From the UHGV virus genome UHGV-1421865: DNA of 64,000 nucleotides. The stretch is one strand, 5' to 3'. This stretch comes from a virus. This document shows, one piece after another, positions 6,979 through 60,612 of the stretch. Below the pieces are notes generated by a model. That model was not told where the DNA came from. It was given only the letters and a program-made list of their open reading frames with translations, and searched no databases. A program made the position numbers and the translations under genes. Numbering within the stretch: the stretch's first letter is position 1; each line of letters begins with the position of its first letter.

Positions 6979-7083
6979 ATCTTTAATGTATGTTTAATTG
7001 GTTTACTTGTTCGTATATTTGTATTATAGCGAACTTTGTGAGCAAAATCAGTGCAGTTACAATCAACTTGTAATATACATACA

Positions 7084-7230
7084 AAAACTCAAGAAAATCT
7101 CGTCTGTATCGCGTCGAAATCTTCTAGCCTTCACATACCCAGGTAAGTACGTTTGGACGCGACAGAGAGGCTAAAAAGTGCCTCTATGGACGTGTAATAG
7201 TTCAGCATACCGGTACACGCAACATAAACT
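7084..7230 (-). repeat. conserved about 150-nt intergenic element, copy A (candidate structured RNA or regulatory module)
   Basis: Outer inverted repeat TCTGTATCGCGTC/GACGCGACAGAGA around inner hairpin; flank GAGGCTAAAAAGTGCCTCTATGG; contains TAcgTTTG. Confidence 0.6.
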
Positions 7231-7259
7231 CGAGAAATCAACGTAGTTTGTGCACAAAA

Positions 7260-7622
7260 TCAGCCTCTCGCCTCGGCATAAACTATATCCTGTTTTGGTA
7301 CATAACGATTTCCTGAAAGCCTTTTACCTTCAAACGCTACACATTTTTGTTTTCTTACTTCGTCCCATACAGGATCCCAAATATCGGTTGCGTGCACATA
7401 ACATACACCTCGCAGTCCTAAAATACCGTCTTTCAAGTTGTAATACTCAGTACAAACATCGTATCCTTTATATTTTGTTGTATCAATATCACGGGCTAGT
7501 GTATCGTTAAGATTTATTCGTAGCACACCAATTGCCTCTTGTATGGTACTATAACAGTATTCTGAGTCATTTATTGCTTTTATTGCCGTAGTTATACTTA
7601 TGTCAGTAAATGGTTTCATCAT
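7260..7622 (-). CDS. hypothetical protein (paralog of 42080..42709), start corrected to MMKPFTD
   Basis: Track ORF N-terminus (MCKVQQKSCV) is a translation of element copy B; C-terminal motif YNLKDGILGLRGV shared with 42080..42709. Confidence 0.4.
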   Translation of the reverse strand: MMKPFTDISITTAIKAINDSEYCYSTIQEAIGVLRINLNDTLARDIDTTKYKGYDVCTEYYNLKDGILGLRGVCYVHATDIWDPVWDEVRKQKCVAFEGKRLSGNRYVPKQDIVYAEARG

Positions 7623-7674
7623 AATTATTTTTCTATAGTATAGTACATTTGTACAGGACAAATCAAAACCTCTA

Positions 7675-7815
7675 AAAATTTGCTCTCTGACGCACGATTT
7701 TTGTTGGACCTTACACATACTAAGGTCACTACATTTGAGTGTGTTAGAGAGCCTTAAAAGTGCCTTTACGAGGACGTTAGGTATTTACATACCAGTGCGC
7801 AAAACAGAAACTGTC
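7675..7815 (-). repeat. conserved about 150-nt intergenic element, copy B
   Basis: CTCTCTGACGCAC...GTGTGTTAGAGAG stem with two G-T positions; inner hairpin GGACCTTA..TAAGGTC; TAcaTTTG motif. Confidence 0.6.
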
Positions 7816-7884
7816 TAAATCAGTGCATTTTACAGAATCTACACGTACAGATTTTTACATATACAACAAATATAAACCGACACA
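7815..7884 (+). promoter_or_regulatory. candidate promoter region upstream of giant gene (AAATCAGTGCA ... CAGATTTTTACATATA)
   Basis: Motif pair also present upstream of 26151 array. Confidence 0.3.
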
Positions 7885-14022: not shown

Positions 14023-14029
14023 TACTTAT

Positions 14030-14070
14030 CAATAACAAAATAAGACGGTCTCTGGAATGAACGAGATCGT
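14030..14070. terminator. hairpin terminator after giant gene
   Basis: AATAAGACGgtctc...gagatCGTCTTATTTCAG; stem then T-run. Confidence 0.5.
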
Positions 14071-14109
14071 CTTATTTCAGTTATATATCGACTAAACTCT
14101 AAACGTCCA

Positions 14110-14258
14110 AAAATCTCCTCTCTAACGCACGATTTTTCTTTGACCTTCACTAGGCTAAGCCTAGTATATTTGAGTGCGTTAGAGAGCCTTAAAAGTGCCT
14201 TTACGGGCTTGTAATGTATTTGTACGTCCCTGCCCAAAACAGAAAACGTACAAATCAG
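14110..14258 (-). repeat. conserved about 150-nt intergenic element, copy C
   Basis: CTCTCTAACGCAC...GTGCGTTAGAGAG perfect stem; inner hairpin CTAGGCTAAGCCTAG; TAtaTTTG motif preceded by TTTG 22 nt upstream. Confidence 0.6.
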
Positions 14259-14322
14259 GACAAAAAGTATGATTTATCATATAAAAACAGCTATTGTAAA
14301 TATACAAATATAGTAAATAAAT

Positions 14323-17845: not shown

Positions 17846-18958
17846 TTAATACAGTTCTATACGTAGACCTAACTTATTGGCTTTTAACATCTTAGATGAT
17901 GTAGAGTTTATATCACCCGTGAAGAGTACTTTCGCGTCTGACCAACTGTTTGTTTGAACGTACTGTGGATTCTTCTCCAGAAATTCTTTCTTAGACGCAT
18001 ATTTAGACGGACTACCCGTCAACATCACAGGCACTTGTGTAGTCTTGCTTGTACCGACGTGTAAGTTTGTAAGTTGACACATACCAATGCCGTAGTCAGT
18101 AAGTGCGTTAACCAACGCATTGAATTGCAACCATTTAGGTGATTGGTGATTATAGACCCAACTGTACCCTTCCGATGCGACACCACTGAAATCGGCTTGT
18201 CCAGTACCGATGAACTGCGCACATTTCTTAGCGCATGTGGAACCACATTTGTTGAAATTCAACGACTTGATGATGTCTACTAATGTGATTTGTCGTCGGT
18301 AATTCTTAAACGATTCGGCGGCTTTCTGCCCTCGTTTACCTTTCAACGCTTGTTCTATCTGTTCCGGTCTTACTTGGAGTATATTTGTTAAACTCTCGAA
18401 GTTATGTTGTAAAGTGTCGTACAACGCAGCCGCTACAGACGGACCGATGTTAGGTATCTTCAGAGTTTGTGCAGACGCGATGAACTGCCCACGGTTACTC
18501 ACAAGACCCACCAGATGACAACCTTCTACAACAGCATCATTTGGTAAACTACCGAGGTCCTTTGATGGATTGTCAAGTACAGAATAAAGAAACGGAATAA
18601 TGTCACCGGCTAAGGAAACTTCAATCTCCGTACCTATACCTACTTGATTATCAATAAGATAGCCGTAGTTATGTCCAGAACATTTAGTGACTATTTTATC
18701 AAGTAGTACAACAGGTTCAAAGACAATCACCGGTGTATACTCTCCGGTCTTACCTTGGTTCCATACAATATCTACTACCTTCGTCTTTTGAATTTCCGGA
18801 ACAAATTTCACAGCAACGCAGTCCGACGGTCGAACTTTATCGGTATTCTGTTCTCTGACAGGGAGTATAGGCTTGATAACAAACCCGTCCAGAGCATATT
18901 CACACTCTTCGGTACGGTATTTGTTAAAGTCGTTATATAGTTCTTGTAAGGTACTCAT
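17846..18958 (-). CDS. NAD-dependent DNA ligase, C-terminal polypeptide (NTase motifs IV-V, OB, HhH and BRCT-like regions)
   Basis: Begins inside adenylation domain: LDGFVIKP (motif IV), VAVKF (motif V); start ATG overlaps stop of upstream TS-like gene (TAATG). Confidence 0.7.
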   Translation of the reverse strand: MSTLQELYNDFNKYRTEECEYALDGFVIKPILPVREQNTDKVRPSDCVAVKFVPEIQKTKVVDIVWNQGKTGEYTPVIVFEPVVLLDKIVTKCSGHNYGYLIDNQVGIGTEIEVSLAGDIIPFLYSVLDNPSKDLGSLPNDAVVEGCHLVGLVSNRGQFIASAQTLKIPNIGPSVAAALYDTLQHNFESLTNILQVRPEQIEQALKGKRGQKAAESFKNYRRQITLVDIIKSLNFNKCGSTCAKKCAQFIGTGQADFSGVASEGYSWVYNHQSPKWLQFNALVNALTDYGIGMCQLTNLHVGTSKTTQVPVMLTGSPSKYASKKEFLEKNPQYVQTNSWSDAKVLFTGDINSTSSKMLKANKLGLRIELY

Positions 18959-19926
18959 TATACTGCGATAGGTGCTTTAATAACAGGGGGTGTATAAGAA
19001 CCGTCGAAATGTTTCTTTACCTTTATCTGTCGGCTTTCGTACATCTCCAAAATATAACACAAATAAGCGTCTAAGGACATCGGTACATTCACAGTAGACA
19101 TGGTCATATCCAAGGTGCATTCTACGGTATGATAACATTGCGTCACATAGTCATCGGTATTAGTAAAGAACGAATCGATATATTCCTGTACAGCATCTTT
19201 ATGATTGTCGTAGATATGGAAATTATCGGCGGTATAGTATATATTTCCGCATTTTACTTTATCGATACCATATTTCTTTTTGAACCATTCATGGTTGACC
19301 TTAAAATAGCCGTTTATAAACCAGTTGAACCAAGAACAGAATATGAAATTATACGGCGCACCCAAGAACGCGTCGTTACTGCGAATATGAGCATGTAGGT
19401 TGTGTGTAAGTACTGTATTCCCAGCGTCGTCTGTGTCCAACTGAAATGTAACGTTATATTCGAACATACAAGGTGCCAGTGCCATTTCCGGTAGGTCGTT
19501 CACATTCCAAAGTGAGATAATATGTCGGCGCGAGAATAAATTGTTATTGAAACCTTCAAATAGTTGTTTCAACTGATCAATACCGTTAAAGTTTCGAAAC
19601 TGATAACCGTACGCCTTACCGATAGTACCATCTTCCTGTACCCATTCATCCCAATAGGTAACACCGTGGTCGCGAAGCCACTGTACGTCGGTCCGTCCTT
19701 GCAGCATCCAGAGTAGTTCGGTGAGTGCCATTCGAGGATAAACACGTTTTCCGTTCACCACCATCAGTCGAACTTCGTCGGACGGTGAAGGAGACTGTTC
19801 AAATACAAAGTTGATACCGTAAGAGTTCAACGTACTGATGTCGGTTCTATTCGACATTTTCTGTGTGACAGTCGACAATATGTTAGTAAGCTGTCTTACA
19901 TAGTCTGTTTCAAATAGTTGTGTCAT
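18958..19926 (-). CDS. thymidylate synthase family enzyme (ThyA or dUMP-hydroxymethylase-like) with about 100-aa C-terminal extension
   Basis: LTELLWMLQGRTDV, RRHIISLWNVNDL, MALAPCM (catalytic Cys), PYN (Asn, uracil-specific); 322 aa versus about 260 typical. Confidence 0.75.
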   Translation of the reverse strand: MTQLFETDYVRQLTNILSTVTQKMSNRTDISTLNSYGINFVFEQSPSPSDEVRLMVVNGKRVYPRMALTELLWMLQGRTDVQWLRDHGVTYWDEWVQEDGTIGKAYGYQFRNFNGIDQLKQLFEGFNNNLFSRRHIISLWNVNDLPEMALAPCMFEYNVTFQLDTDDAGNTVLTHNLHAHIRSNDAFLGAPYNFIFCSWFNWFINGYFKVNHEWFKKKYGIDKVKCGNIYYTADNFHIYDNHKDAVQEYIDSFFTNTDDYVTQCYHTVECTLDMTMSTVNVPMSLDAYLCYILEMYESRQIKVKKHFDGSYTPPVIKAPIAV

Positions 19927-20602
19927 TGTTTAATGGATATTCTAGTTTATAAAATTTAGGTGTCTTGGGAAGTCCGTACCATTCTCGTTCTGTCCACTTA
20001 CCGTTTTCTAATACTCTATAATCGTATATGATAATGTCTAAATCATCGTCGTATTCGTGAGATGTACTATTCAAGACACCCGATACCATCGAACGAGGAC
20101 TCGAGAACTTATCTTTGTATTTCTCTTCAAATGTCTTCAGTTTTACCAGCACCTCACCACGTATAACTGCCTGTGCACCATATACATAGTAGTCTGGATA
20201 AACCGATCGAATTTGCTTAATAAGGTGGCTACGCAAGTCTTTACCGTAATTCCCGTCGCCCCGAGACGATATGCTGCCAACAGTACCGTTCGCATTGATA
20301 ACACATTCGAAAGAACAACCGTCGAATTTCGGGGTCACTTCTATGGCATTATCACCGACATATTTTTTAATATCTTCTGTATAATTAGAAAAATCATCTA
20401 AGCTATGAACTTGGACCTTGTAGAGGGATCCCATTATAAACGGATGCCGTACAGTATATGTTGTACTGGATTTAGTACCGATATAAGACTTGTTCTCGAG
20501 ACCTAGCTCTTTCTCTAACGCGTCAAATTCTGTGTCAGACATTATCTCCTGCCCATTGTAGTATGCTTCTTTTGCTTTATGGTATAATTCTTCTTTTGTC
20601 AT
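19910..20602 (-). CDS. NAD-dependent DNA ligase, N-terminal polypeptide (domain Ia plus NTase motif I)
   Basis: YYNGQEIMSDTEFDALEKEL (domain Ia), HPFIMGSL, KxDG lysine motif TPKFDGCSF; ends 17 nt after start of TS-like gene. Confidence 0.7.
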   Translation of the reverse strand: MTKEELYHKAKEAYYNGQEIMSDTEFDALEKELGLENKSYIGTKSSTTYTVRHPFIMGSLYKVQVHSLDDFSNYTEDIKKYVGDNAIEVTPKFDGCSFECVINANGTVGSISSRGDGNYGKDLRSHLIKQIRSVYPDYYVYGAQAVIRGEVLVKLKTFEEKYKDKFSSPRSMVSGVLNSTSHEYDDDLDIIIYDYRVLENGKWTEREWYGLPKTPKFYKLEYPLNNDTTI

Positions 20603-20684
20603 CTTATCATCATATAGTTTATACTTTATATAGTATAGTTTACAAGAAAAATCAGCTACTTAAAACATTGTTTTGGGTCTACTT

Positions 20685-20835
20685 TGACAGTTTCTATTTC
20701 GTGTACCGACGTGTACAAATCTAGAATCGTCATAAAGGCACTTTAGAGCTCCTGTATCGCGTCGAAATTATCTAGCCTTACTACAACCAAGGTCAACTAA
20801 TTTGTACGCGATACAGGAGAGATTTTTATTGAGTT
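20685..20835 (+). repeat. conserved about 150-nt intergenic element, copy D (core inverted relative to flanks)
   Basis: Flanks in the same orientation as copies E-H, but the core CCTGTATCGCGTC-gaaattatctagcctt...-CGCGATACAGGA matches copy A core as read on the opposite flank orientation. Confidence 0.55.
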
Positions 20836-20924
20836 TCAAATGGGTACACTGACGCCGTGTGGGACACGTTGTGTGTACCGTCTTGATGCTTTGCATCAAA
20901 TTGTTCACAAAGTGAACATAATTA

Positions 20925-21039: not shown

Positions 21040-21172
21040 TCTCTTGCTCTATTAGTACACGCAACTCGTTGTAAGTAGCAGGTTTTAATTTAGCCGATTT
21101 CGTATTCGATGTGATCTTTAGACGTTCGTTAATGAAATTTTGTAGACTCATTTATTCGCTAGTATTGTTTAT
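21040..21172 (-). pseudogene. DUF285 N-module remnant (truncated after about 44 codons)
   Basis: Translates MSLQNFINERLKITSNTKSAKLKPATYNELRVLIEQEIKNQGPY then stop; no repeats follow. Confidence 0.4.
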
Positions 21173-21810
21173 CAGTCTTTGAATTTTGGTTGAAGTTGTG
21201 GATTAGTTCCCATATTAGGACATTTATCAAATGTCATATAATACTTGATTACTTTCGACACATCCCACTCAGACAAGTCACAATTGAAACGTTCGCAAAA
21301 ATAGAACATATAACTCATATTTTTAACATTGGTGACATTCCAAGAACTTAAATCTACATTTAGCTTTTTACACCAAGAGAACATATCTTCCATGTTTTCT
21401 ACTTTACTAACGTTCCAATTTTCTATACCTTTGCCTTCAAATTTTTTACATTCATAAAACATGAAAGACATGTTCGTTACATTAGAGGTGTTCCAATTTT
21501 CTACTCCATCGCCTCTGAAGTTATCTTGACCTACAAACATGTTTTGCATAGTAGTTACATTTGATGTATTCCACTGGTCAATTTTGATATTTCCGATGTT
21601 TAATTTATAAAACAAACTAACCATATCTGTAATCTCCGATGTATCTATAAAGTTCAAATCGGCGTTCGGACCTTGTTCTTTTAGTTCTTGTTCTATAATA
21701 GATCTGAGTTCGTCTTTTGTTTTAGGTCTCAATCTTAATGGTTGGGTATCGGGCGTAATCTTTAATCGTTCTGTGATTAAACTATCGTGAATGTATCGTG
21801 AAAGTGACAT
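21172..21810 (-). CDS. DUF285-repeat protein; C-terminal 71 aa identical to 26151..26696
   Basis: N-module MSLSRYIHDSLITERLKITPD...; 3' 214 bp identical in inverted orientation to 26478..26694. Confidence 0.6.
   Translation of the reverse strand: MSLSRYIHDSLITERLKITPDTQPLRLRPKTKDELRSIIEQELKEQGPNADLNFIDTSEITDMVSLFYKLNIGNIKIDQWNTSNVTTMQNMFVGQDNFRGDGVENWNTSNVTNMSFMFYECKKFEGKGIENWNVSKVENMEDMFSWCKKLNVDLSSWNVTNVKNMSYMFYFCERFNCDLSEWDVSKVIKYYMTFDKCPNMGTNPQLQPKFKD
21177..21392. repeat. left arm of perfect 214-bp inverted repeat
   Basis: Reverse complement identical to 26478..26694. Confidence 0.8.
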
Positions 21811-30051: not shown

Positions 30052-30840
30052 ATGAAACTACAAAAATTCATCACAGAACGGTTAAAGATTACGTCTAAGT
30101 CAAGACCACTCAAACTAACAGAACGTACATTGTTTCCGACTAACTCCGGGCAACTTAAAGCTGTAATAAAACATGAATTGAAACATCAAGGTCCGGATGC
30201 CGATTTGAACCATATCGATACTTTTAAGATCACCGATATGTCTAAATTATTTGAATCTCTACAAATCGGAAACATCAAAATCAACGAATGGGACGTCAGT
30301 AATGTCACTAATATGAGGTTCATGTTTAGCGGGCGTACTAAATTCAATTGCGACTTGTCCGGTTGGGACGTCAGTAATGTAACAGATATGGGGTTCATGT
30401 TTAGTAGTTGTACGTTATTTGAGGGTGGTGGTTTAGATCATTGGGATACGTCCAACGTGGCAGATATGGAACAGATGTTTTACGGTTGTGAGAATTTCAA
30501 TTGTGACCTATCTAGTTGGTCTTCGCGTGTCTCTAATGTGACAAATATGAACGGTATGTTTTCTGGAGCTGATAAATTTGAAGGTAATGGTTTAGATCAT
30601 TGGGATACGTCCAACGTGACACGCATGCGTGCTATGTTTAAGGGTTGTAAGGTTTTTGAAAGCGACATATCCGGTTGGGATACGTCAAATGTTGAGGACA
30701 TGTCGTATATGTTTATGGACTGCGGTAAGTTCAAATCAAATCTATCAGGCTGGAACGTATCTAAATTAGGCGGTCCTCAGATTAATATATTCAAAAATTG
30801 TCCTAAGATGATACCTCCGTTGAGACCTCGATTTGAATAG
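30052..30840 (+). CDS. DUF285-repeat protein
   Basis: MKLQKFITERLKITSKSRPL... plus about 8 repeats. Confidence 0.6.
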   Translation: MKLQKFITERLKITSKSRPLKLTERTLFPTNSGQLKAVIKHELKHQGPDADLNHIDTFKITDMSKLFESLQIGNIKINEWDVSNVTNMRFMFSGRTKFNCDLSGWDVSNVTDMGFMFSSCTLFEGGGLDHWDTSNVADMEQMFYGCENFNCDLSSWSSRVSNVTNMNGMFSGADKFEGNGLDHWDTSNVTRMRAMFKGCKVFESDISGWDTSNVEDMSYMFMDCGKFKSNLSGWNVSKLGGPQINIFKNCPKMIPPLRPRFE

Positions 30841-31387: not shown

Positions 31388-33907
31388 ATGAGCTTATTTA
31401 GTAGTTTAGGCGGTGCGTTGCGGAACGGACTGCGTCTCGGTGTCGCACAAGGTATCAAAGACGGGCTCAAATTAGCGACTAACGAATCGGCCGGTGGTAA
31501 TGGGTACGAATACTATAAACATGCCGATTCTATACCAGTTAACTTGTATTCGCTACGCAGTGCAGGTATTTCGGCTAATGATAAGTCTACAGTAGAAAAC
31601 GACGACAGCACCAATCCTGGTATGAAACCCGTCAATGCACAAAACATAAAAGAAAACGGTGATGTACTTGTTACAAAGTATATTAAAAACGATGCGTACA
31701 GAGATTCCGATAAAATGGACATCGCCGTTCCTTCTTGGGGGTACGATGACTTTATAAATACCCGGGCTATATTCCAAAAAGGGATTCACTCGCCGTTTTC
31801 TTTGCCTGGCTTCTTTTATTTTAAGGTATTCTTTAAGTTCGATACACAGCACGGTCTTTTCGGCGGCATCTTAAATAATGGCAACTCAAAAAGCGATCAC
31901 AATTATACAACACAAAACGTAGAGCAAGACAAAGACGGTAATAAAAAAATAGTAGATAAAAAGCACACGGAAAGTGTAGATGGTATTTATGTCGGCACAA
32001 ATACGGCTGCGAAATACCTCAGTGTCTTACATCATTCTAAAAGATACAAGATGTCGGCACCCGGTGAACGATTGAACGCGTTGGTGAAATTTACCAAGAT
32101 GCTTTCTCATATATCTTGTAAAGAACCGTGGTACATTAAATCTATCAAGGGACTAGGACAGGCCGATTCTATTAAATTAGAAGATATGTCTAAAGAGAAG
32201 GTGATAGAAATCGGCATGGGAATGGAGGCTGTCGATATGCGTCTTACCACGATGTTCGACCTGTATCGCTTCGCATGTTATGATATGGCGAACTGTAGAG
32301 AGATTATCCCTGATAACCTACGGAAGTTCGAAATGCAGGTCGTCGTGTTCAATGTACCGTTGAAGAATTTCCACCAGGCGTTAAAGACCAACAGGGAGAC
32401 CTTTAAGTACAAACGGCTGGAAGGAGACGAAAAGATGTCTTATAAAGTATATACCTTCCAAAACTGCGAATTCGACCCGGAATCGTTCGGTTCCGGAATG
32501 CCGGATTTAGATGTAGAAAAAGCCGGTGAATTAGGACATCATACAATTAAGATAAAATACGACAGAGTCTATACGACAACCAGTGCAGAGTTTTATAATC
32601 TGTTGCTGTCACCGACCGGCTTCATTCCTAGTTACAACAACAAACATGTCGCTCGAATGAAGGCGATACAAGACGCTGTATTAAATAACAAATATCACGA
32701 CAAAAACGGCGAATACTCTAAAGACGTTATCTGTGCGTCGGAAGCGATAGCACAAAACGCACTATCAGAGCAAGCGGGACGTACTTTGTTGGGAAATATA
32801 TACGCTGAAGATGCCGTACCCGGGTTTAGAACAAAGAAATACGACAATGCACAGGTTAGTATCGCGAAAGGCGGTAAGCTTGGGTCTTATTATAAAACTA
32901 AATTAAAATATCTTAAAACAAGAGGTATGGAATCGTCTTTTATGACAGACGGTTTTAATATATTACTGAACAAGATACTCGGCGGTCGGGGTATGTCAAT
33001 CACGTCGCTGGGGAACATCTACGGATCTATCGGTAACAACGGTAATTATATTAAAGACAAAATAAAGAATCTAAAACGTGGTACACTGTATACGGGCTAT
33101 TCTTGGACACCTCCGTCGGAAGCCGACTTGCGAAGCCAAGAATTCGATAGATTCCGAAGCGGTGGTTACCGAGTCAATAAAACAACAAGCTCCGAAACGA
33201 TACTACCGTCGGCACCGAAAGAACGTCGTACCGATGCTCAACAGAAAGAACGTATTAGAAATAAGACATCCGATATTAAGAAGGGTTGGCAGAACGAAGT
33301 CGTCGGTATACCCGGTAACAATACAACTACAATGACTGTTTCGGAACATCAGTATAATATGGCTGAGTCAATCAAAGACGGTACTATTTCAAGTACGAAC
33401 GACACCGACCATGTTGCATATAAGACTAAATTAGAACAGATGACCGAACGTGTTAAGAACGGCAACGGTGACGTATTAAGTACAGTTGAGGCTGATCATG
33501 CAGCATACAAGGCTAAGATGTCTACTATGGTCGAGAAAGTCAAACAAGGAAACGGTGAAATTGTAGCTAACATACAAGCTGATCATCAAAACTACTTGGA
33601 CGAAATACAACAAATGACCGAACGTGTTAAGAACGGTAATGGTGACGTGTTAAGTACAGTCGAAGCTGATCATGTTGTATATAAGAACAAATTACAACAA
33701 ATGACCGAGCGTGTCAAACAAGGCAATGGTGATATAACAACTAACGTACAAGCTGATCATCAAAATTACTTAGATGAAATACAACAGATGACTGAACACA
33801 TAAAGAACGGCGATGAAAGTATAACATCTGGTACATCAACTGACGCTATCAGTGAACGAGGAAATCTAAAAGCTAAATTAGAAGCACTCAAAAACGGCAC
33901 TTTATAA
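31388..33907 (+). CDS. large hypothetical virion protein with C-terminal tandem coiled-coil-like repeats
   Basis: 839 aa; five repeats of about 30 aa (TVEADH..YK.KL.QMTERVKNGNGDVLS alternating with N.QADHQNYLDEIQQMTE.VK.GNG); DNA-level tandem repeats near 33400..33800. Confidence 0.45.
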   Translation: MSLFSSLGGALRNGLRLGVAQGIKDGLKLATNESAGGNGYEYYKHADSIPVNLYSLRSAGISANDKSTVENDDSTNPGMKPVNAQNIKENGDVLVTKYIKNDAYRDSDKMDIAVPSWGYDDFINTRAIFQKGIHSPFSLPGFFYFKVFFKFDTQHGLFGGILNNGNSKSDHNYTTQNVEQDKDGNKKIVDKKHTESVDGIYVGTNTAAKYLSVLHHSKRYKMSAPGERLNALVKFTKMLSHISCKEPWYIKSIKGLGQADSIKLEDMSKEKVIEIGMGMEAVDMRLTTMFDLYRFACYDMANCREIIPDNLRKFEMQVVVFNVPLKNFHQALKTNRETFKYKRLEGDEKMSYKVYTFQNCEFDPESFGSGMPDLDVEKAGELGHHTIKIKYDRVYTTTSAEFYNLLLSPTGFIPSYNNKHVARMKAIQDAVLNNKYHDKNGEYSKDVICASEAIAQNALSEQAGRTLLGNIYAEDAVPGFRTKKYDNAQVSIAKGGKLGSYYKTKLKYLKTRGMESSFMTDGFNILLNKILGGRGMSITSLGNIYGSIGNNGNYIKDKIKNLKRGTLYTGYSWTPPSEADLRSQEFDRFRSGGYRVNKTTSSETILPSAPKERRTDAQQKERIRNKTSDIKKGWQNEVVGIPGNNTTTMTVSEHQYNMAESIKDGTISSTNDTDHVAYKTKLEQMTERVKNGNGDVLSTVEADHAAYKAKMSTMVEKVKQGNGEIVANIQADHQNYLDEIQQMTERVKNGNGDVLSTVEADHVVYKNKLQQMTERVKQGNGDITTNVQADHQNYLDEIQQMTEHIKNGDESITSGTSTDAISERGNLKAKLEALKNGTL
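33400..33800 (+). repeat. intragenic tandem DNA repeats (period about 180 bp)
   Basis: Near-identical segments gaccgaacgtgttaagaacggYaaYggtgacgtRttaagtacagtYgaRgctgatcatg. Confidence 0.6.
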
Positions 33908-33920
33908 CATACTTTATATA

Positions 33921-33958
33921 TTAAAAGACGATCTCAGCTATTTTGGGTCGTCTTTTTT
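33921..33958. terminator. hairpin terminator AAAAGACGATCtcagctattttgggTCGTCTTTTTTGT (left inverted-repeat arm)
   Basis: Stem plus T-run immediately after plus-strand gene stop; inverted copy at 34449..34492. Confidence 0.6.
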
Positions 33959-33982
33959 GTATCATTTTACATCGATTTGTAT

Positions 33983-34130
33983 GATTTCTGTTTTGTGTAC
34001 TGGTATACCAAACTATAACAAGCCCGTAAAGGCACTTTTTAGCCTCTCTAACGCACTCAAATGTACTTACCTTGGTACTACCAAGCCTCAACAAAAATCG
34101 TGCGTTAGAGGGGAGATTTTTGTGTGTTTT
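33983..34130 (+). repeat. conserved about 150-nt intergenic element, copy E
   Basis: GTTTCTGTTTTGTGTACTGGTAT...CGTAAAGGCACTTTTTAGCC-TCTCTAACGCAC-[CCTTGGTAgTACCAAGG]-GTGCGTTAGAGG-GGAGATTTTTGTG. Confidence 0.65.
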
Positions 34131-34296
34131 CAAAATCAACCTACCTATTATGATGTTGGTTGTGTCACAACGTATAATAAAATACATATAAAGCGTACTT
34201 TACGTATATTATATGATACCTTATGGAAAATCACATTAACTTTATTAGTACAGTATCTTTAGTACTGTTTGGTAGCAGTTTAGTGTGATTTTGTCG

Positions 34297-34445
34297 GTTT
34301 CTGTTTTGTGTACTGGTATACCAAACTATAACAAGCCCGTAAAGGCACTTTTTAGCCTCTCTAACGCACTCAAATGAAGTGACCTTAGTAGTACCAAGGT
34401 CAAAGAAAAATCGTGCGTTAGAGGGTAAATTTTGTAGGTTTTTGA
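34297..34445 (+). repeat. conserved about 150-nt intergenic element, copy F (tandem with E)
   Basis: Same architecture; inner hairpin GACCTTaGTAgTACcAAGGTC. Confidence 0.65.
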
Positions 34446-34448
34446 TTT

Positions 34449-34492
34449 AGCAAAAAAAAAGACGACCTCAAAATAACTGAGATCGTCTTTTC
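34449..34492. terminator. hairpin terminator (right inverted-repeat arm)
   Basis: AAAAAGACGAcctcaaaataactgagaTCGTCTTTT; reverse complement matches 33921..33958 including the loop. Confidence 0.6.
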
Positions 34493-34502
34493 TTATATGG
34501 TA

Positions 34503-34859
34503 TTAGTGTGGTAGCGACTTATAGTTTTTATCAAATGACCTACCGACCTGTGTTAGTACAGGACCGTAACTAGTGCCGATAGTGTCACCTAAATGGTCTA
34601 TTTCACCTGTACCGTATTCCATGTATACGGAAAAGTCGCGGTCTTCAAATTCCTTATTTACAGCATCGACTAAATTGTCTACTGTGTCCGGTGCTGTAAT
34701 TATCTGAAAACAACATTGCTGAAATACCTCATAGTCGAACGTATACAACTTTTGTAGTCTTTTCAATATATTGTTAATATACCATGAACGAGGCATTTGT
34801 GTATACATCACTTTATCAGACTTAACAAGACCGCCTAAGATTACACTGTATTCTTTCAT
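34503..34859 (-). CDS. hypothetical protein
   Basis: 118 aa ORF, ATGA overlap with next gene. Confidence 0.4.
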   Translation of the reverse strand: MKEYSVILGGLVKSDKVMYTQMPRSWYINNILKRLQKLYTFDYEVFQQCCFQIITAPDTVDNLVDAVNKEFEDRDFSVYMEYGTGEIDHLGDTIGTSYGPVLTQVGRSFDKNYKSLPH

Positions 34860-35260
34860 AATTTCTTAAATTGTGAGTTATATAATGAAAAATCTGGTTT
34901 ATGTCTATCTAAGATATAACAGCCGAAGAACATTAATGCCGCACTTTTTACATTCGATACGTCCCAACTAGCTAAATCACAATCGAAATCTTTACACAAA
35001 GTAAACATACCGTGCATGTCAGTGACGTTGCTGACGTCCCACTCGTCGATTTTGATGTTTCGAGGGTATAAATTTAGAAATAAATCAGACATGTCTGTTA
35101 TTTTGGATGTGTCGATGAAATTTAGATCTGCATCTGGTCCTTGGCGTTCTAATTCTTTTTCTATAATAGATCTGAGTTCGTCTTTTGTTGTTGATTTTAT
35201 ACTGAGTAATTTAGACTTAGATGTAATACGCAGTCTACTGGGTCTATTATGTATCGCCAT
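34856..35260 (-). CDS. DUF285-repeat protein (N-module type MAIHNRPSRLRITS)
   Basis: N-module plus 3 repeats. Confidence 0.6.
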   Translation of the reverse strand: MAIHNRPSRLRITSKSKLLSIKSTTKDELRSIIEKELERQGPDADLNFIDTSKITDMSDLFLNLYPRNIKIDEWDVSNVTDMHGMFTLCKDFDCDLASWDVSNVKSAALMFFGCYILDRHKPDFSLYNSQFKKL

Positions 35261-41506: not shown

Positions 41507-41867
41507 GTTGATTAAATAGTTGATTTGTGTATTATATAGTCTATTTTATGCTGAGAATCAGTGCATGTGACGTCCAGATTATTAACTATATTTTTGATAC
41601 AGATATGGACATCAAAAACGCACCGAAAAGTAAAATGTCGTTATATAAAGAAAAATATGAATACAACGGTAGTAACAAGTACGACTATGCCGCGAACGGG
41701 GTACTCACCAAAACACTTCCGAAGATACTATTTAAGGGCAATTCCTTGTTCGTTACATTCTTACAACTCATTGACCTTCGTATTATCAACCTACTAAAAT
41801 ACATCGACGAACTTAAAAACTTCAAGTCTGTTTGATACTATTTTGCTCGCATTTTGGTCTGATTTGC

Positions 41868-42020
41868 GCGGTTTCTGTTTTGTGTACTGGTATGCAAATA
41901 CCCAACGTCCACGTAAAGGCACTTTTTAGGCTCTCTGGCGCACTCAAATTAGTTGGGCTTAGTATGTGTAAGGTCCAACAAAAATCGTGCGTTACAGGGC
42001 AAATTTTCTTAGGTTTGGAC
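41868..42020 (+). repeat. conserved about 150-nt intergenic element, copy G
   Basis: Stem GCTCTCTGGCGCAC/GTGCGTTACAGGGC with G-T positions; inner hairpin TTGGgCTTA...TAAGgtCCAA. Confidence 0.6.
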
Positions 42021-42029
42021 TTTAGAAAA

Positions 42030-42075
42030 TAAACAAGACGATCTTATTCACTTAGGATCGTCTTGTTTATTGTGT
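42030..42075. terminator. hairpin AAACAAGACGATC...GATCGTCTTGTTT
   Basis: 13-bp stem sharing the AAGACGATC core with terminators at 33921 and 34449. Confidence 0.55.
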
Positions 42076-47312: not shown

Positions 47313-48029
47313 TCAGTAAGGCATCGTCGGAAATTGTTTATAAAATACTGTATAAACATCTAACTTCGTATTGTCAAATATGCCGTCCATTCTCTTGATA
47401 TTCGATATATCCCAATTTTCAAGACCCTTACCTCTAAACAGTATTGCACCTTCAAACATCCAACGCATGTCCACTACTTTTGATACATTCCATCTTGAGA
47501 TATTACCGTTAAATACCTTCGCTTTGTTGAACATCATGTACATGTACATTACATTACCGGTATCCCAATTTTCAACACAGATTCCAGTGAACGATACTGC
47601 GCTACAAAACATACGAGACATATTCGTCACATTACCGACGTCCCATTTTGAAAGATCACCGTTGAATGACATTGCATCCTCAAACATCTGACTCATGTTC
47701 CATACATTACCGACGTCCCAAGTTGAGATGTTACCAATAAACATGTCACAACCATGGAACATTCCACTCATGTCTTCAACATTCGAAGTGTCCCACTCGT
47801 CGATTTCGACATTTCTAACACCAAGCCCCTTGAACAACTCAGACATATCGGTGATCAACGACGTATCGATGAAATTAAGATCGGCATCCGGCCCTTCCCT
47901 CACCAGTTCACATATTATCAACTCACGTAGTTCAAGTTTCGATGTTGGTTGGGATCGCTGTAAAGATTTAGACTGTGATGTAATACGCAGTCTACTGGGT
48001 CTATTATGTATAGCCATGTCAAACAGCAC
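47313..48029 (-). CDS. DUF285-repeat protein (N-module type MAIHNRPSRLRITS)
   Basis: N-module plus about 8 repeats. Confidence 0.6.
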   Translation of the reverse strand: MLFDMAIHNRPSRLRITSQSKSLQRSQPTSKLELRELIICELVREGPDADLNFIDTSLITDMSELFKGLGVRNVEIDEWDTSNVEDMSGMFHGCDMFIGNISTWDVGNVWNMSQMFEDAMSFNGDLSKWDVGNVTNMSRMFCSAVSFTGICVENWDTGNVMYMYMMFNKAKVFNGNISRWNVSKVVDMRWMFEGAILFRGKGLENWDISNIKRMDGIFDNTKLDVYTVFYKQFPTMPY

Positions 48030-59994: not shown

Positions 59995-60077
59995 AATTAG
60001 GCTGTTTTATGCTGTATAAATAGCAACATTTACAGACAAAATCAGTGTACCGTATAGATTCCTACACATATTTCTAC

Positions 60078-60228
60078 AGTTTCTATTTCGCGTACTGGTA
60101 TATACAAACATAGAATCGACGTAAAGGTACTTTTTAGCCTCTCTGACGCACTCAAATGCACTGACCTTGGTACTACTAAGGTCAAACAAAAATCGTGCGG
60201 TACAGGGCAAATTTTTGTACGTTTTGAA
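60078..60228 (+). repeat. conserved about 150-nt intergenic element, copy H
   Basis: CAGTTTCTATTTCGCGTACTGGTAT...CGTAAAGGTACTTTTTAGCC-TCTCTGACGCAC-[GACCTTgGTAcTACtAAGGTC]-GTGCGGTACAGGG-CAAATTTTTGT. Confidence 0.6.
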
Positions 60229-60240
60229 CAGCACAACAAG

Positions 60241-60612
60241 TTACTTGAAATTCGGACGGAACTTAGGTTGCATTTTATAACAACCCAAAAACGCATACTC
60301 ATGTTTTGTAACATTACTAACGTCCCATTTAGATAGGTCGCAACTGAATTTATCTTGATTCATAAACATAAAAGACATATCTGTAACATTACTAACGTCC
60401 CACTCGTCGATTTTAATGTTTTCGATATGAAGTAGGTCGAACAACTTCGACATATCTGTGATCTCTGATGTATCAATGAAATTTAAGTCGGCATCCAGCC
60501 CCTGTCGTTTTAGTTCTTTGTCTATGATGACTTTCAGTTCGCTATACGATGTAGGACGTACACTTAGGGATTTGCTCTTAGATGTTATTTTAAGCCGTTC
60601 GTTGATGTACAT
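60241..60612 (-). CDS. DUF285-repeat protein (short)
   Basis: MYINERLKITSKSKSL... plus 2 repeats. Confidence 0.55.
   Translation of the reverse strand: MYINERLKITSKSKSLSVRPTSYSELKVIIDKELKRQGLDADLNFIDTSEITDMSKLFDLLHIENIKIDEWDVSNVTDMSFMFMNQDKFSCDLSKWDVSNVTKHEYAFLGCYKMQPKFRPNFK

What the first reader, a model, noticed from the sequence alone, without database searches (positions are those of the whole stretch)
33921..34492. Two tandem element copies enclosed by a pair of inverted, loop-matched terminator hairpins
Element copies E and F sit head-to-tail between convergent gene ends. They are bounded on both sides by the same 36-bp unit, AAAAGACGATCTCAG(C/T)TATTTTG(G/A)GGTCGTCTTTT, in opposite orientation. 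Stems and loops both match, so this is a true inverted repeat and not just two unrelated hairpins. The composite of about 570 bp resembles a miniature inverted-repeat element or a double terminator cassette. Related AAGACGATC-core hairpins accompany element copies at 14030 and 42030.
Basis: seen in the sequence. Interest (0 to 1): 0.55.

Follow-up and report, generated by a model that had tools for sequence, protein, structure and literature searches.

The report
Flippable repeat cassette between twin terminators
Between two genes that face each other in a very large phage from the human mouth, two copies of a scattered ~175-base structured repeat sit between twin copies of one terminator hairpin. 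In related phages this block has been flipped, so it is a recombination-prone cassette and not a transposon.

Summary
At 33921-33958 and 34451-34497 lie two copies of one terminator-like hairpin in opposite orientation, stems and loops matching (about 90%). Each sits 8-14 nt after the stop codon of one of two convergent genes. Between them are two head-to-tail copies (E, F; 85% identical; period 313 bp) of a ~175-nt repeat that has 8 copies in the window and at least 30 in related contigs. It matches no Rfam family.

The repeat has a 14-bp helix with compensatory changes, a hairpin with a hypervariable loop, and a U-run. It has no terminal inverted repeats and no target duplications.

Orthologous loci in about 11 related oral huge-phage lineages keep the cassette at the same place. 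Copy number varies from 1 to 3. In 3-4 lineages the whole block is inverted, with breakpoints in the hairpins.

A second, independent locus has a different twin hairpin. It also shows the inversion, between contigs with 95-97% identical flanks.

Best reading: this is not a MITE. It is a PeSL/BIME-like modular intergenic cassette whose twin terminators act as ~40-bp inverted repeats for recombination. What the repeat does remains inferred; an RNA terminator or small RNA is most likely.

The parts
31388..33907 (+). 839-aa gene, the left convergent neighbour. It is coiled-coil-like and has 87-bp (29-aa) tandem repeats near its 3' end.
   Evidence: ORF; repeats D1; only weak Pfam hits. Orthologues are 839, 868 and 897 aa.
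33921..33958 (+). T-L: terminator-like hairpin plus U-run, 14 nt after the stop codon of the 839-aa gene. It is the left arm of the inverted pair.
   Evidence: RNA fold -14.1 kcal/mol on + vs -9.6 on -. Conserved in relatives.
33961..34136 (+). Element copy E. Its parts are a 5' conserved unstructured half, helix P1 (34043-34056 / 34100-34113), an inner hairpin (34069-34085) and a U-run.
   Evidence: (I5).
34137..34273 (.). Spacer of the tandem unit. It carries promoter-like matches on both strands: + strand ATGATG(34150-34155)-17-TATAAT(34173-34178); - strand GTGATT(34234-34229)-15-TATAAT(34213-34208).
   Evidence: Sequence. The phage promoter consensus YTGATTT-N15-CTATAWWATA was read. The spacer is conserved and duplicated together with the element in relatives. 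Promoter activity is inferred only.
34274..34449 (+). Element copy F. Helix P1 is at 34356-34369 / 34413-34426. The inner hairpin 34384-34400 is the reverse complement of the one in E.
   Evidence: (I3, I6).
34451..34497 (-). T-R: terminator-like hairpin plus a 9-U run, 8 nt after the stop codon of the 118-aa gene. It is the right arm of the inverted pair.
   Evidence: Fold -22.4 kcal/mol on - vs -14.3 on +.
34503..34859 (-). 118-aa gene of unknown function, the right convergent neighbour. It was used to fetch orthologous loci.
7078..7252 (-). Element copy A (divergent subfamily).
7659..7834 (-). Element copy B. Its 3' TTGATTT (7666-7660) serves as the -35-like box of a promoter-like site (CTATACTATAG) in front of a co-directional small gene (ATG at 7622).
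14094..14269 (-). Element copy C.
14036..14079 (+). Hairpin of the AAGACG..CGTCTT family after the 2045-aa gene, next to copy C. It is absent at the orthologous site of a relative.
20667..20842 (+). Element copy D (divergent subfamily), followed by a mini hairpin element at about 20845-20885.
41848..42023 (+). Element copy G.
42028..42071 (.). Hairpin of the same family with a perfect palindromic stem, between copy G and the stop of the convergent 209-aa gene.
60056..60231 (+). Element copy H.

Best explanation
The 570-bp composite is the whole intergenic region between two convergent genes of a huge (>200 kb) phage from the human oral microbiome. It is built from reusable modules.

(1) Each gene ends in its own copy of one dispersed terminator hairpin (T, core AAGACGAYC...GRTCGTCTT). 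Because the genes converge, the two copies are inverted relative to each other.

(2) Between them lies a tandem array (period about 313 bp, two units here) of [element + spacer]. The element is a dispersed ~175-nt repeat with a conserved unstructured 5' half, a 14-bp helix enclosing a hairpin with a hypervariable loop, and a U-run.

Shown:
- the architecture;
- the family;
- the helix with compensatory changes;
- copy-number variation (1-3 units) at this locus;
- inversion of the complete block between the two hairpins in related phages;
- the same kind of inversion at a second, independent twin-hairpin locus.

Inferred:
- The twin hairpins act as ~36-47-bp inverted repeats for the phage's general homologous recombination, which flips the block.
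- Recombination among element and hairpin copies expands, contracts and moves the modules, as PeSL cassettes do in T4-type phages. No transposition is involved.
- Twin hairpins with inverted loops are what persists, because direct twins would delete the block.
- The element works at the RNA level as a one-directional terminator, insulator or small-RNA-like unit.
For: Identity of the genome:
- The topoisomerase II large subunit is 49% identical to that of Prevotella Lak megaphages.
- DNA polymerase, methyltransferase and topoisomerase subunits are present, as are a gp32-like SSB, a split ligase, thymidylate synthase and an exonuclease, and a weak RuvC-like hit.
- Identical contigs come from a human oral metagenome, and contigs of 0.2-1 Mb carry the 118-aa protein.

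Hairpins:
- They are twin inverted copies.
- Both fold best on the strand of their own gene.
- All four AAGACG-type hairpins in the window lie next to an element copy, whereas four other strong hairpins do not.

Element family:
- 8 copies in the window and 40 nhmmer hits in the window plus 22 metagenome loci.
- Helix P1 is 92% paired, 6 of 14 pairs have compensatory changes, and 0 of 500 shuffles reach the observed score.
- There are 34 G.U against 5 A.C cells on the element strand, and a U-run follows only on that strand.

Locus 1 in relatives:
- Same arrangement with two copies in L078 and L083, three copies in L086, one copy in L056.
- The whole block is inverted in L076/L077. BLAST shows window 33916-34498 matching on the minus strand while both flanks match on the plus strand.
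- It is also inverted in L088/L089 and L093, and probably in L091.
- These are independent samples and assemblers, with k=141 contigs, so an assembly artefact is unlikely.

Locus 2:
- A different hairpin (AAAAAGAGACTGTACAGTTACTTGTACAGTCTCTTTTTT) flanks one element between convergent genes.
- The block is inverted between L073 and L071, although the flanks are 95-97% identical.
- Five loci without twin hairpins are collinear between the window and relatives.

PeSL precedent: PMC2839356 and PMC4122927.
Against: - No reads or transcriptomes were available. Inversion is shown only between lineages, not within one population, and its rate is unknown.
- At locus 1 all inverted lineages share a variant hairpin next to the 118-aa gene. 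This may be one old event spread by recombination rather than repeated flipping.
- No conserved sigma-70-type promoter lies inside the element. Only a -35-like CTGATTT is present. Copies boxed in by two strong terminators may not be transcribed at all, which weakens the RNA-function part.
- The G.U excess comes mainly from two columns.
- The origin of the twin hairpins (integration at a palindromic terminator, or duplication) is a model, not an observation.
Confidence: 0.6

Rival explanations
1. Programmed inverton. A phage- or host-encoded site-specific recombinase recognises the twin hairpins and flips the cassette at high frequency. This would be a regulatory switch that decides which of the two convergent genes faces the element's one-directional terminator or the spacer promoters.
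For: - The block is bounded by inverted repeats and occurs in both orientations at two independent loci.
- At locus 2 the flanks are 95-97% identical, so the flip is recent.
- The block carries strand-specific features: a U-run terminator-like end and promoter-like sites.
- Viral invertons have only just begun to be reported (PMC13501310).
Against: - No recombinase was found among about 30 window proteins scanned. The window covers under a third of the genome, so this is a partial test.
- The inverted repeats are long (36-47 bp), differ between the two loci, and double as terminators. That fits homology-driven rather than site-specific recombination.
- In the inverted lineages of locus 1 the two hairpins have diverged to about 76% identity, which looks like a fixed state.
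- No within-sample heterogeneity was seen. The two states in sample ERZ1757403 belong to different alleles.
Confidence: 0.15
2. Miniature inverted-repeat transposable element. The hairpins would be the terminal inverted repeats of a ~570-bp non-autonomous transposon that moves between loci.
For: There are inverted terminal units of about 40 bp, and related hairpins lie next to other element copies.
Against: - The cassette is at the same locus in all about 11 relatives.
- No target-site duplication is visible.
- Other element copies lack the pair, and a second twin locus uses another hairpin sequence.
- The element ends are not inverted repeats.
- No transposase was seen.
- There are no hits in 185,579 species genomes or in IMG/VR.
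Confidence: 0.03
3. Small-RNA genes with ordinary terminators. E and F would be members of a multicopy phage sRNA family transcribed from their own or the spacer's promoters. The hairpins would simply be shared bidirectional terminators, and the inversions neutral accidents without functional meaning.
For: - The module is conserved and strand-asymmetric, with a helix and U-run.
- Placement is gene-like: the 5' end faces divergent promoters or upstream terminators, and the 3' end faces convergent terminators or a downstream promoter.
- Copy F is about 91% identical to its counterpart in L076, against 84% for the neighbouring 118-aa gene region in the same comparison.
- Variable loops sit on a constant scaffold.
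- The spacer has a -35/-10 match 100 nt upstream of F.
Against: - The element contains no conserved -10 element.
- The 5' half has no consensus structure and no detectable complementary target in the window.
- There is no Rfam match.
- Several copies are interrupted by mini-hairpin insertions at different places, which a constrained RNA would tolerate poorly.
Confidence: 0.3
4. Nothing beyond two unrelated terminators and junk. On this view the similarity of the hairpins is convergence (A-run, GC stem, U-run) and the inversions are assembly errors at inverted repeats.
For: Bidirectional terminators all share an A-tract, a stem and a T-tract. Short inverted repeats can confuse de Bruijn assemblers.
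Against: - The loops and inner stems match, and the pair is conserved across lineages.
- The inverted state recurs in independent samples, sources and assemblers (ENA, JGI, Logan), with k-mers longer than the repeat, and carries its own diagnostic hairpin variant.
Confidence: 0.05

Closest known systems
PeSL cassettes (promoter-early stem-loop) of T4-type phages (Arbiol et al. 2010, PMC2839356; Comeau et al. 2014, PMC4122927)
   Same: - Both are dispersed, conserved intergenic modules in large lytic phages.
- Both combine a terminator stem-loop with an AT-rich stretch and sigma-70-like promoter parts.
- Both serve as sites of homologous recombination that insert, delete or swap neighbouring modules.
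- Here the element's 3' end (helix, U-run, GGTTTTGATTT) supplies the -35-like box of a downstream promoter at copy B.
   Different: - PeSLs are about 100 bp, co-directional with genes, and contain a full -35/-10/SD/ATG.
- This element is ~175 nt and lacks a -10.
- At four of its seven loci (copies C, D, G and H) it is antisense to both neighbouring genes.
- It has an 80-nt conserved 5' half and a 14-bp helix with an inner hypervariable hairpin.
- Inversion between twin terminators has not been described for PeSLs.
REP / BIME / REPIN elements of bacterial chromosomes
   Same: Both are families of about 35-40-bp imperfect palindromes at the 3' ends of genes. Both are often found as inverted pairs around a conserved inner motif between convergent genes, acting as terminators or mRNA stabilisers.
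   Different: REPs are chromosomal, very numerous and mobilised by RAYT (Y1) transposases. Here there are four hairpins per 64 kb, in a phage, no RAYT was seen, and the inner part is a 175-nt repeat that also occurs alone. (Comparison from general knowledge, not tested against sequences.)
Invertible DNA segments / invertons (Mu G-Gin, P1 C-Cin, fimS, Bacteroides invertible promoters)
   Same: In both, a segment bounded by inverted repeats is found in both orientations and contains strand-specific regulatory signals.
   Different: Known invertons use short recombinase sites and a dedicated invertase, and flip within a clonal population. Here the repeats are whole terminator hairpins, they differ between loci, no invertase was found, and only between-lineage polymorphism is shown.
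Bacterial MITE-like structured repeats (Correia/NEMIS, ERIC, RUP, bcr1)
   Same: Both are about 100-180-nt intergenic repeats in many copies, able to fold and carrying terminator or promoter fragments.
   Different: Those elements have terminal inverted repeats and target duplications. Neither is present here.

Membership tests
Intrinsic (factor-independent) terminator | GC-containing hairpin directly followed by a U-run, placed just after a stop codon | tested here: met
   T-L lies 14 nt and T-R 8 nt after the stop codons. Stems are 12-18 bp, followed by 6 and 9 U. Folding energies are -14.1 and -22.4 kcal/mol, z -4.8 and -7.4.
Intrinsic (factor-independent) terminator | Transcript 3' ends at the U-run in vivo | not testable with these tools
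   No Term-seq or RNA-seq data were available.
MITE | Terminal inverted repeats shared by all copies of the element | tested here: not met
   Ends of 27 copies give an inverted local score of 5.4 against 6.8 for shuffled controls. The hairpin pair is present at only one of seven element loci in the window and differs at the second twin locus.
MITE | Target-site duplications and presence/absence at non-homologous sites | tested here: not met
   The cassette is at the same locus in about 11 lineages. Differences there are tandem copy number and orientation only. No flanking duplication is seen.
Inverton (programmed invertible segment) | Segment bounded by inverted repeats | tested here: met
   (about 43 nt, about 90%); for locus 2 (about 45 nt).
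Inverton (programmed invertible segment) | Both orientations exist | tested here: met
   Shown between lineages: locus 1; locus 2.
Inverton (programmed invertible segment) | Both orientations within one clonal population | not testable with these tools
   This needs read-level data. The two states seen in sample ERZ1757403 belong to 82%-identical, that is different, alleles.
Inverton (programmed invertible segment) | Dedicated serine or tyrosine recombinase | tested here: inconclusive
   None was found among about 30 window proteins, but the window is under a third of the genome and not every ORF was scanned.
PeSL cassette | Stem-loop terminator followed by a complete sigma-70-like promoter, SD and start codon of the downstream gene | tested here: not met
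   The helix, U-run and -35-like TTGATTT are present. A -10 and a gene follow only at copy B and its orthologue L059. The other copies face a convergent terminator.
PeSL cassette | Indels or rearrangements between close relatives with breakpoints in the repeats | tested here: met
   Unit number varies from 1 to 3 and inversions have breakpoints in the hairpins. The hairpin is present or absent at locus C.
Any Rfam RNA family | Covariance-model score at or above the gathering threshold | tested here: not met
   0 matches in the window at gathering thresholds. The best E-value in 33850-34550 is 1.5.
REP/BIME/REPIN | Associated RAYT (Y1) transposase and high copy number of the palindrome | not tested
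   There are only four hairpins of this family in 64 kb. No systematic search for a RAYT gene was made.

The most novel reading that the evidence does not exclude
The twin-terminator cassettes are genuine invertons of huge lytic phages, flipped actively during infection. They would re-aim a one-directional terminator or small-RNA module (a new phage RNA family with hypervariable loops) at one or the other of two convergent genes. That would be phase-variable gene regulation encoded by a megaphage itself.
Probability: 0.12. Interest if true: 0.75.

Novelty: new variant of a known kind. Interest (0 to 1): 0.45.

Why it matters
Huge phages of the human mouth are known almost only from metagenomes, and their non-coding DNA is uncharted. 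This locus shows three things:
- these genomes carry a private family of structured intergenic repeats (about one per 8-10 kb);
- terminator hairpins are reused as modules;
- two inverted copies of a terminator are enough to make the DNA between them flip.

This offers a concrete, testable mechanism for small-scale genome plasticity in megaphages. It is a possible route to phage-borne invertons. It is also a caution for annotation pipelines, which call spurious ORFs (88 and 101 aa) across these repeats.

Tried and rejected
- **Known RNA families.** Rfam gave no match at gathering thresholds or permissive E-values. ARAGORN found no tRNA or tmRNA.
- **Other collections.** BLAST of the cassette against INPHARED phages and PLSDB plasmids gave no match. 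Three IMG/VR scans returned only chance 15-mer hits or nothing. A scan of 185,579 species genomes found nothing, so the repeat is not borrowed from a sequenced host.
- **Second helix in the 5' half.** A pairing of the GACGTG/CACGTC or GGACAT/ATGTCC type exists in some copies. It is not alignable across the family and RNAalifold does not support it, so it was dropped.
- **Replication-linked orientation.** The element strands run -,-,-,+,+,+,+,+ along the window. However, GC skew simply follows gene orientation, and with 8 copies the pattern has p of about 0.06, so this was dropped.
- **Internal sigma-70 promoter in the element.** Only a -35-like CTGATTT is conserved, with no -10.
- **Targets of the 5' motif.** The motif GTTTCTGTTTYG was searched as a possible target or promoter elsewhere in the window. 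The only extra exact hit is inside a small ORF.
- **Overlapping ORFs.** ORFs 33921-34187(-) of 88 aa and 33957-34262(+) of 101 aa overlap the repeats. They are not called or conserved in relatives with the other orientation or sequence, so they are spurious.
- **Recalled resemblances.** The 5' motif loosely resembles type II CRISPR repeats, and CGTTAGA resembles SPO1 late promoters. These are memories only, with nothing to support them.
- **Recurrent flipping at locus 1.** The 118-aa protein tree places the inverted lineages apart. All of them share one hairpin variant, so a single event plus mosaicism cannot be excluded.

Full report
**1. What is in the sequence**

The finding's coordinates span the whole intergenic region between two convergent genes. 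These are an 839-aa gene on the + strand (31388-33907) and a 118-aa gene on the - strand (34503-34859).

The repeat finder reports inverted arms 33916-33945 / 34469-34498 (30 nt, 90%) and 33941-33958 / 34455-34472 (18 nt, 89%). Read in the sense of the adjacent gene, the two units are:
- left: AAAAGACGATCTCAGCTATTTTG-GGTCGTCTTTTTT
- right: AAAAGACGATCTCAGTTATTTTGAGGTCGTCTTTTTTTTT

The stems and the loops both match, so the pair is a true inverted repeat, with one indel.

Each unit begins 8-14 nt after a stop codon and folds into a 12-18-bp hairpin followed by a U-run. Each is clearly more stable on the strand of its own gene: -14.1 vs -9.6 and -22.4 vs -14.3 kcal/mol. On the gene strand a G.U wobble stands where the other strand has an A.C mismatch. 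They therefore look like the intrinsic terminators of the two genes.

Between them lie two head-to-tail copies (E, F) of a repeat. The copies are 85% identical over about 170-180 nt, with start-to-start spacing of 313. They are separated by a ~135-nt spacer.

**2. The element family**

BLAST, a degenerate pattern and nhmmer all find the same eight copies in the window:

| Copy | Coordinates | Strand |
|---|---|---|
| A | 7078-7252 | - |
| B | 7659-7834 | - |
| C | 14094-14269 | - |
| D | 20667-20842 | + |
| E | 33961-34136 | + |
| F | 34274-34449 | + |
| G | 41848-42023 | + |
| H | 60056-60231 | + |

All eight are intergenic. The consensus reads:

(c)TATTTTAGgtCTGATTTygacGGTTTCTGTTTyGyGTAC - variable ~25 nt - CGTAAAGGCACTTTTwAG - helix P1 5' arm - TCAAATG - inner hairpin GACCTT(loop)AAGGTC - AAAGAAAAATC - P1 3' arm - AAATTTTT..GGTTTTGAttt.

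Structure:
- P1 (14 bp) is 92% paired across 27 distinct copies. Six of its pairs show compensatory changes, and 0 of 500 shuffles reach the observed score.
- On the element strand there are 34 G.U cells against 5 A.C cells. A U-run follows the helix only on that strand. This points, weakly, to a single-strand (RNA) role in that orientation; two columns carry most of the signal.
- The 5' half has no consensus structure.
- The loop of the inner hairpin is hypervariable. It even occurs as exact reverse complements in different copies, for example E versus F (I3).

There is no Rfam match and no tRNA. The element ends are not inverted repeats.

**3. Where it comes from**

The window encodes:
- a family B-type DNA polymerase, topoisomerase II subunits and a methyltransferase;
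- an exonuclease, a split NAD-ligase, thymidylate synthase and a gp32-like SSB;
- a weak RuvC-like protein and many DUF285 paralogues.

The best topoisomerase relatives are the Lak megaphages, at 49% identity. Contigs identical to the window come from a human oral metagenome, and contigs of 0.2-1 Mb carry the 118-aa protein.

The element pattern gives no hit in IMG/VR, in INPHARED or PLSDB, or in 185,579 species genomes. It does hit 22 real loci in metagenome contigs of related phages. That includes at least 20 copies in two contigs totalling 212 kb. The family is therefore private to one clade of oral huge phages, at roughly one copy per 8-10 kb.

**4. Context of the copies**

A promoter-like consensus for protein genes, YTGATTT-N15-CTATAWWATA, can be read from the window.

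The 5' end of the element faces one of two things:
- the -35 side of such a divergent promoter, 66-80 nt from the start codon (copies B, C, D, H and many relatives);
- the U-run of an upstream terminator, within 2-5 nt (copy E and at least 8 relatives).

The 3' end faces one of two things:
- a convergent terminator (copies C, F, G and relatives);
- a downstream promoter for which its own TTGATTT serves as the -35-like box (copy B and its orthologue L059).

This placement is gene-like. However, the element has only a -35-like box and no conserved -10, so its own transcription is unproven.

**5. The hairpins are themselves a repeat family tied to the element**

A hairpin scan of the window finds about eight strong terminator-like hairpins. 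Four of them share the AAGACGAYC..GRTCGTCTT core, and all four lie next to element copies C, E, F and G. The others lie elsewhere.

At locus C the hairpin and about 30 flanking nt are present in the window but absent at the orthologous site of a relative.

A loop variant (TYATTCAYTTRG) occurs both at the G locus here and next to the 118-aa gene in some relatives.

**6. The decisive comparison**

Homologues of the 118-aa protein were used to fetch the orthologous locus from about 11 lineages. All keep the convergent gene pair and the hairpins. None shows an empty site or target duplications.

| Property | State | Loci |
|---|---|---|
| Number of [element + spacer] units | one | L056 |
| | two | window, L078, L083, L076 |
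| | three | L086 |
| Orientation of the block | as in the window | window, L078, L083, L085, L086, L092, L056 |
| | inverted | L076/L077, L088/L089, L093, probably L091 |

Sources for the table are.

In L076/L077 the whole block between the hairpins is inverted. With the genes made collinear, window 33916-34498 aligns on the minus strand. At the same time 33423-33958 and 34448-34860 align on the plus strand. The junction GAGGTCGTCTTTTTTTGCTAAAATCAAAAC is the reverse complement of the window's right junction.

The inverted state is seen in independent samples, sources and assemblers, and in k=141 contigs, so misassembly at a 40-bp repeat is unlikely.

The protein tree does not group the inverted lineages together. 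All of them share the variant hairpin, however, so one event plus mosaic exchange cannot be excluded.

**7. Independent replication**

A flank comparison of all copies found a second twin-hairpin locus (L073 and L071). There a single element lies between convergent 182-aa and 157-aa genes. It is flanked by inverted, loop-matched copies of a different hairpin, AAAAAGAGACTGTACAGTTACTTGTACAGTCTCTTTTTT.

Between these two contigs the flanks are 95-97% identical and collinear, yet the hairpin-element-hairpin block is inverted.

Five loci without twin hairpins (B, C, D, G, H) are collinear between the window and its relatives. Inversion therefore goes with the twin hairpins.

**8. Interpretation**

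Shown:
- a modular intergenic cassette;
- twin terminators as inverted repeats;
- inversion and copy-number change confined to it;
- no transposon hallmarks.

Inferred:
- The flips are products of general homologous recombination. This is very active in phages with T4-type replication proteins, and a gp32-like SSB and a RuvC-like protein are present here.
- Because each hairpin is a palindrome, a crossover in one arm between a lone terminator and a circle carrying an element plus a hairpin would create exactly such a twin, with inverted loops.
- Twins with direct loops would be 40-bp direct repeats and would delete the block. This would explain why only inverted twins are seen.

This parallels the PeSL cassettes and their mini-circles in T4-type phages (PMC2839356, PMC4122927). 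It also resembles the inverted REP pairs of BIMEs.

A programmed inverton remains possible. No recombinase was found in about 30 proteins scanned, but most of the genome lies outside the window. Viral invertons are only now being proposed (PMC13501310).

What the element itself does is not settled. The strand-specific helix plus U-run, and its higher conservation than the neighbouring coding sequence (about 91% against 84%), favour an RNA-level terminator, insulator or small RNA. Two points argue for caution: the missing promoter, and the tolerance of mini-hairpin insertions.

**9. Verdict**

The 'MITE' part does not.
- The real feature is a recombination-prone, invertible repeat cassette of a new repeat family in oral huge phages.
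- It is a new variant of known kinds (PeSL/BIME-like modules, inverted-repeat-bounded inversions).
- Interest is moderate.

Noticed in passing
window 20845-20885 (core 20855-20872, - strand); also L056:10919-10936, L067:1628-1645, L073:2000-2017, L076:3318-3335, L086:2658-2675, L093:1754-1771: A ~31-37-nt mini hairpin element (GGTACACACAACGTGTCCCACACGGTGTTAC) occurs once in the window, just 3' of copy D. In six related loci it always lies inside or right next to copies of the 175-nt element, at different positions. It looks like a tiny insertion element that targets the repeat.
   Followed up: partly
L072, L066, L057, L067, L086 (relatives; alignment, sequence): A second ~37-nt double-hairpin insert (GACAACGCTGTGCGTTGAGTGTTCACAGAGTGAACAT and its reverse complement) interrupts element copies at two different internal sites and in both orientations.
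   Followed up: no
window 34069-34085 vs 34384-34400 (and the same hairpin in many relatives): The inner hairpin of the element occurs as exact reverse complements in different copies (GACCTTGGTACTACTAAGGTC vs GACCTTAGTAGTACCAAGGTC). These are small hairpin 'flip-flop' inversions like those known from chloroplast non-coding DNA. Orthologous copies often differ in this loop and in the variable 25-nt segment, although their flanks are 85-90% identical.
   Followed up: partly
window 33527-33815: There are three 87-bp (29-aa) tandem repeats near the 3' end of the 839-aa gene. Orthologues are 839, 868 and 897 aa, which are steps of exactly 29 aa, so the repeat number varies between strains.
   Followed up: partly
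window, e.g. 2293-2250, 7051-7010, 20655-20610, 47316-47280, 53742-53700, 53666-53620, 58541-58500, 60045-60000 (all - strand): A well-defined promoter-like consensus YTGATTT-N15-CTATAWWATA lies 30-55 nt upstream of many start codons. The CTGATTT box is also conserved at the 5' end of the repeat element, and a TTGATTT version at the 3' end of many copies.
   Followed up: partly
window 17846-20602 (- strand): The NAD-dependent DNA ligase appears split. The adenylation domain is in 19910-20602 and the OB-fold domain in 17846-18958, with a thymidylate synthase gene (18958-19926) between them.
   Followed up: no
window, many loci (e.g. 21172-21810, 30052-30840, 34856-35260, 47313-48029, 60241-60612): There is a large paralogous family of DUF285 (BspA-like repeat) genes. 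Their number and arrangement next to the topoisomerase gene differ between related contigs.
   Followed up: no
window 33921-34187 (-) and 33957-34262 (+); gene called at L074:3673-3939: ORFs of 88 and 101 aa run across the repeat copies, and one is called as a gene in the public assembly. They are not conserved in relatives and are almost certainly spurious.
   Followed up: yes
window 14026-14100 vs L063:184-190: The terminator hairpin after the 2045-aa gene, together with about 30 nt of flank, is present in the window but missing at the orthologous site of the ERZ651108 relative. There the reverse-complemented element directly follows the stop codon. This means terminator hairpins are gained or lost as units.
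   Followed up: partly
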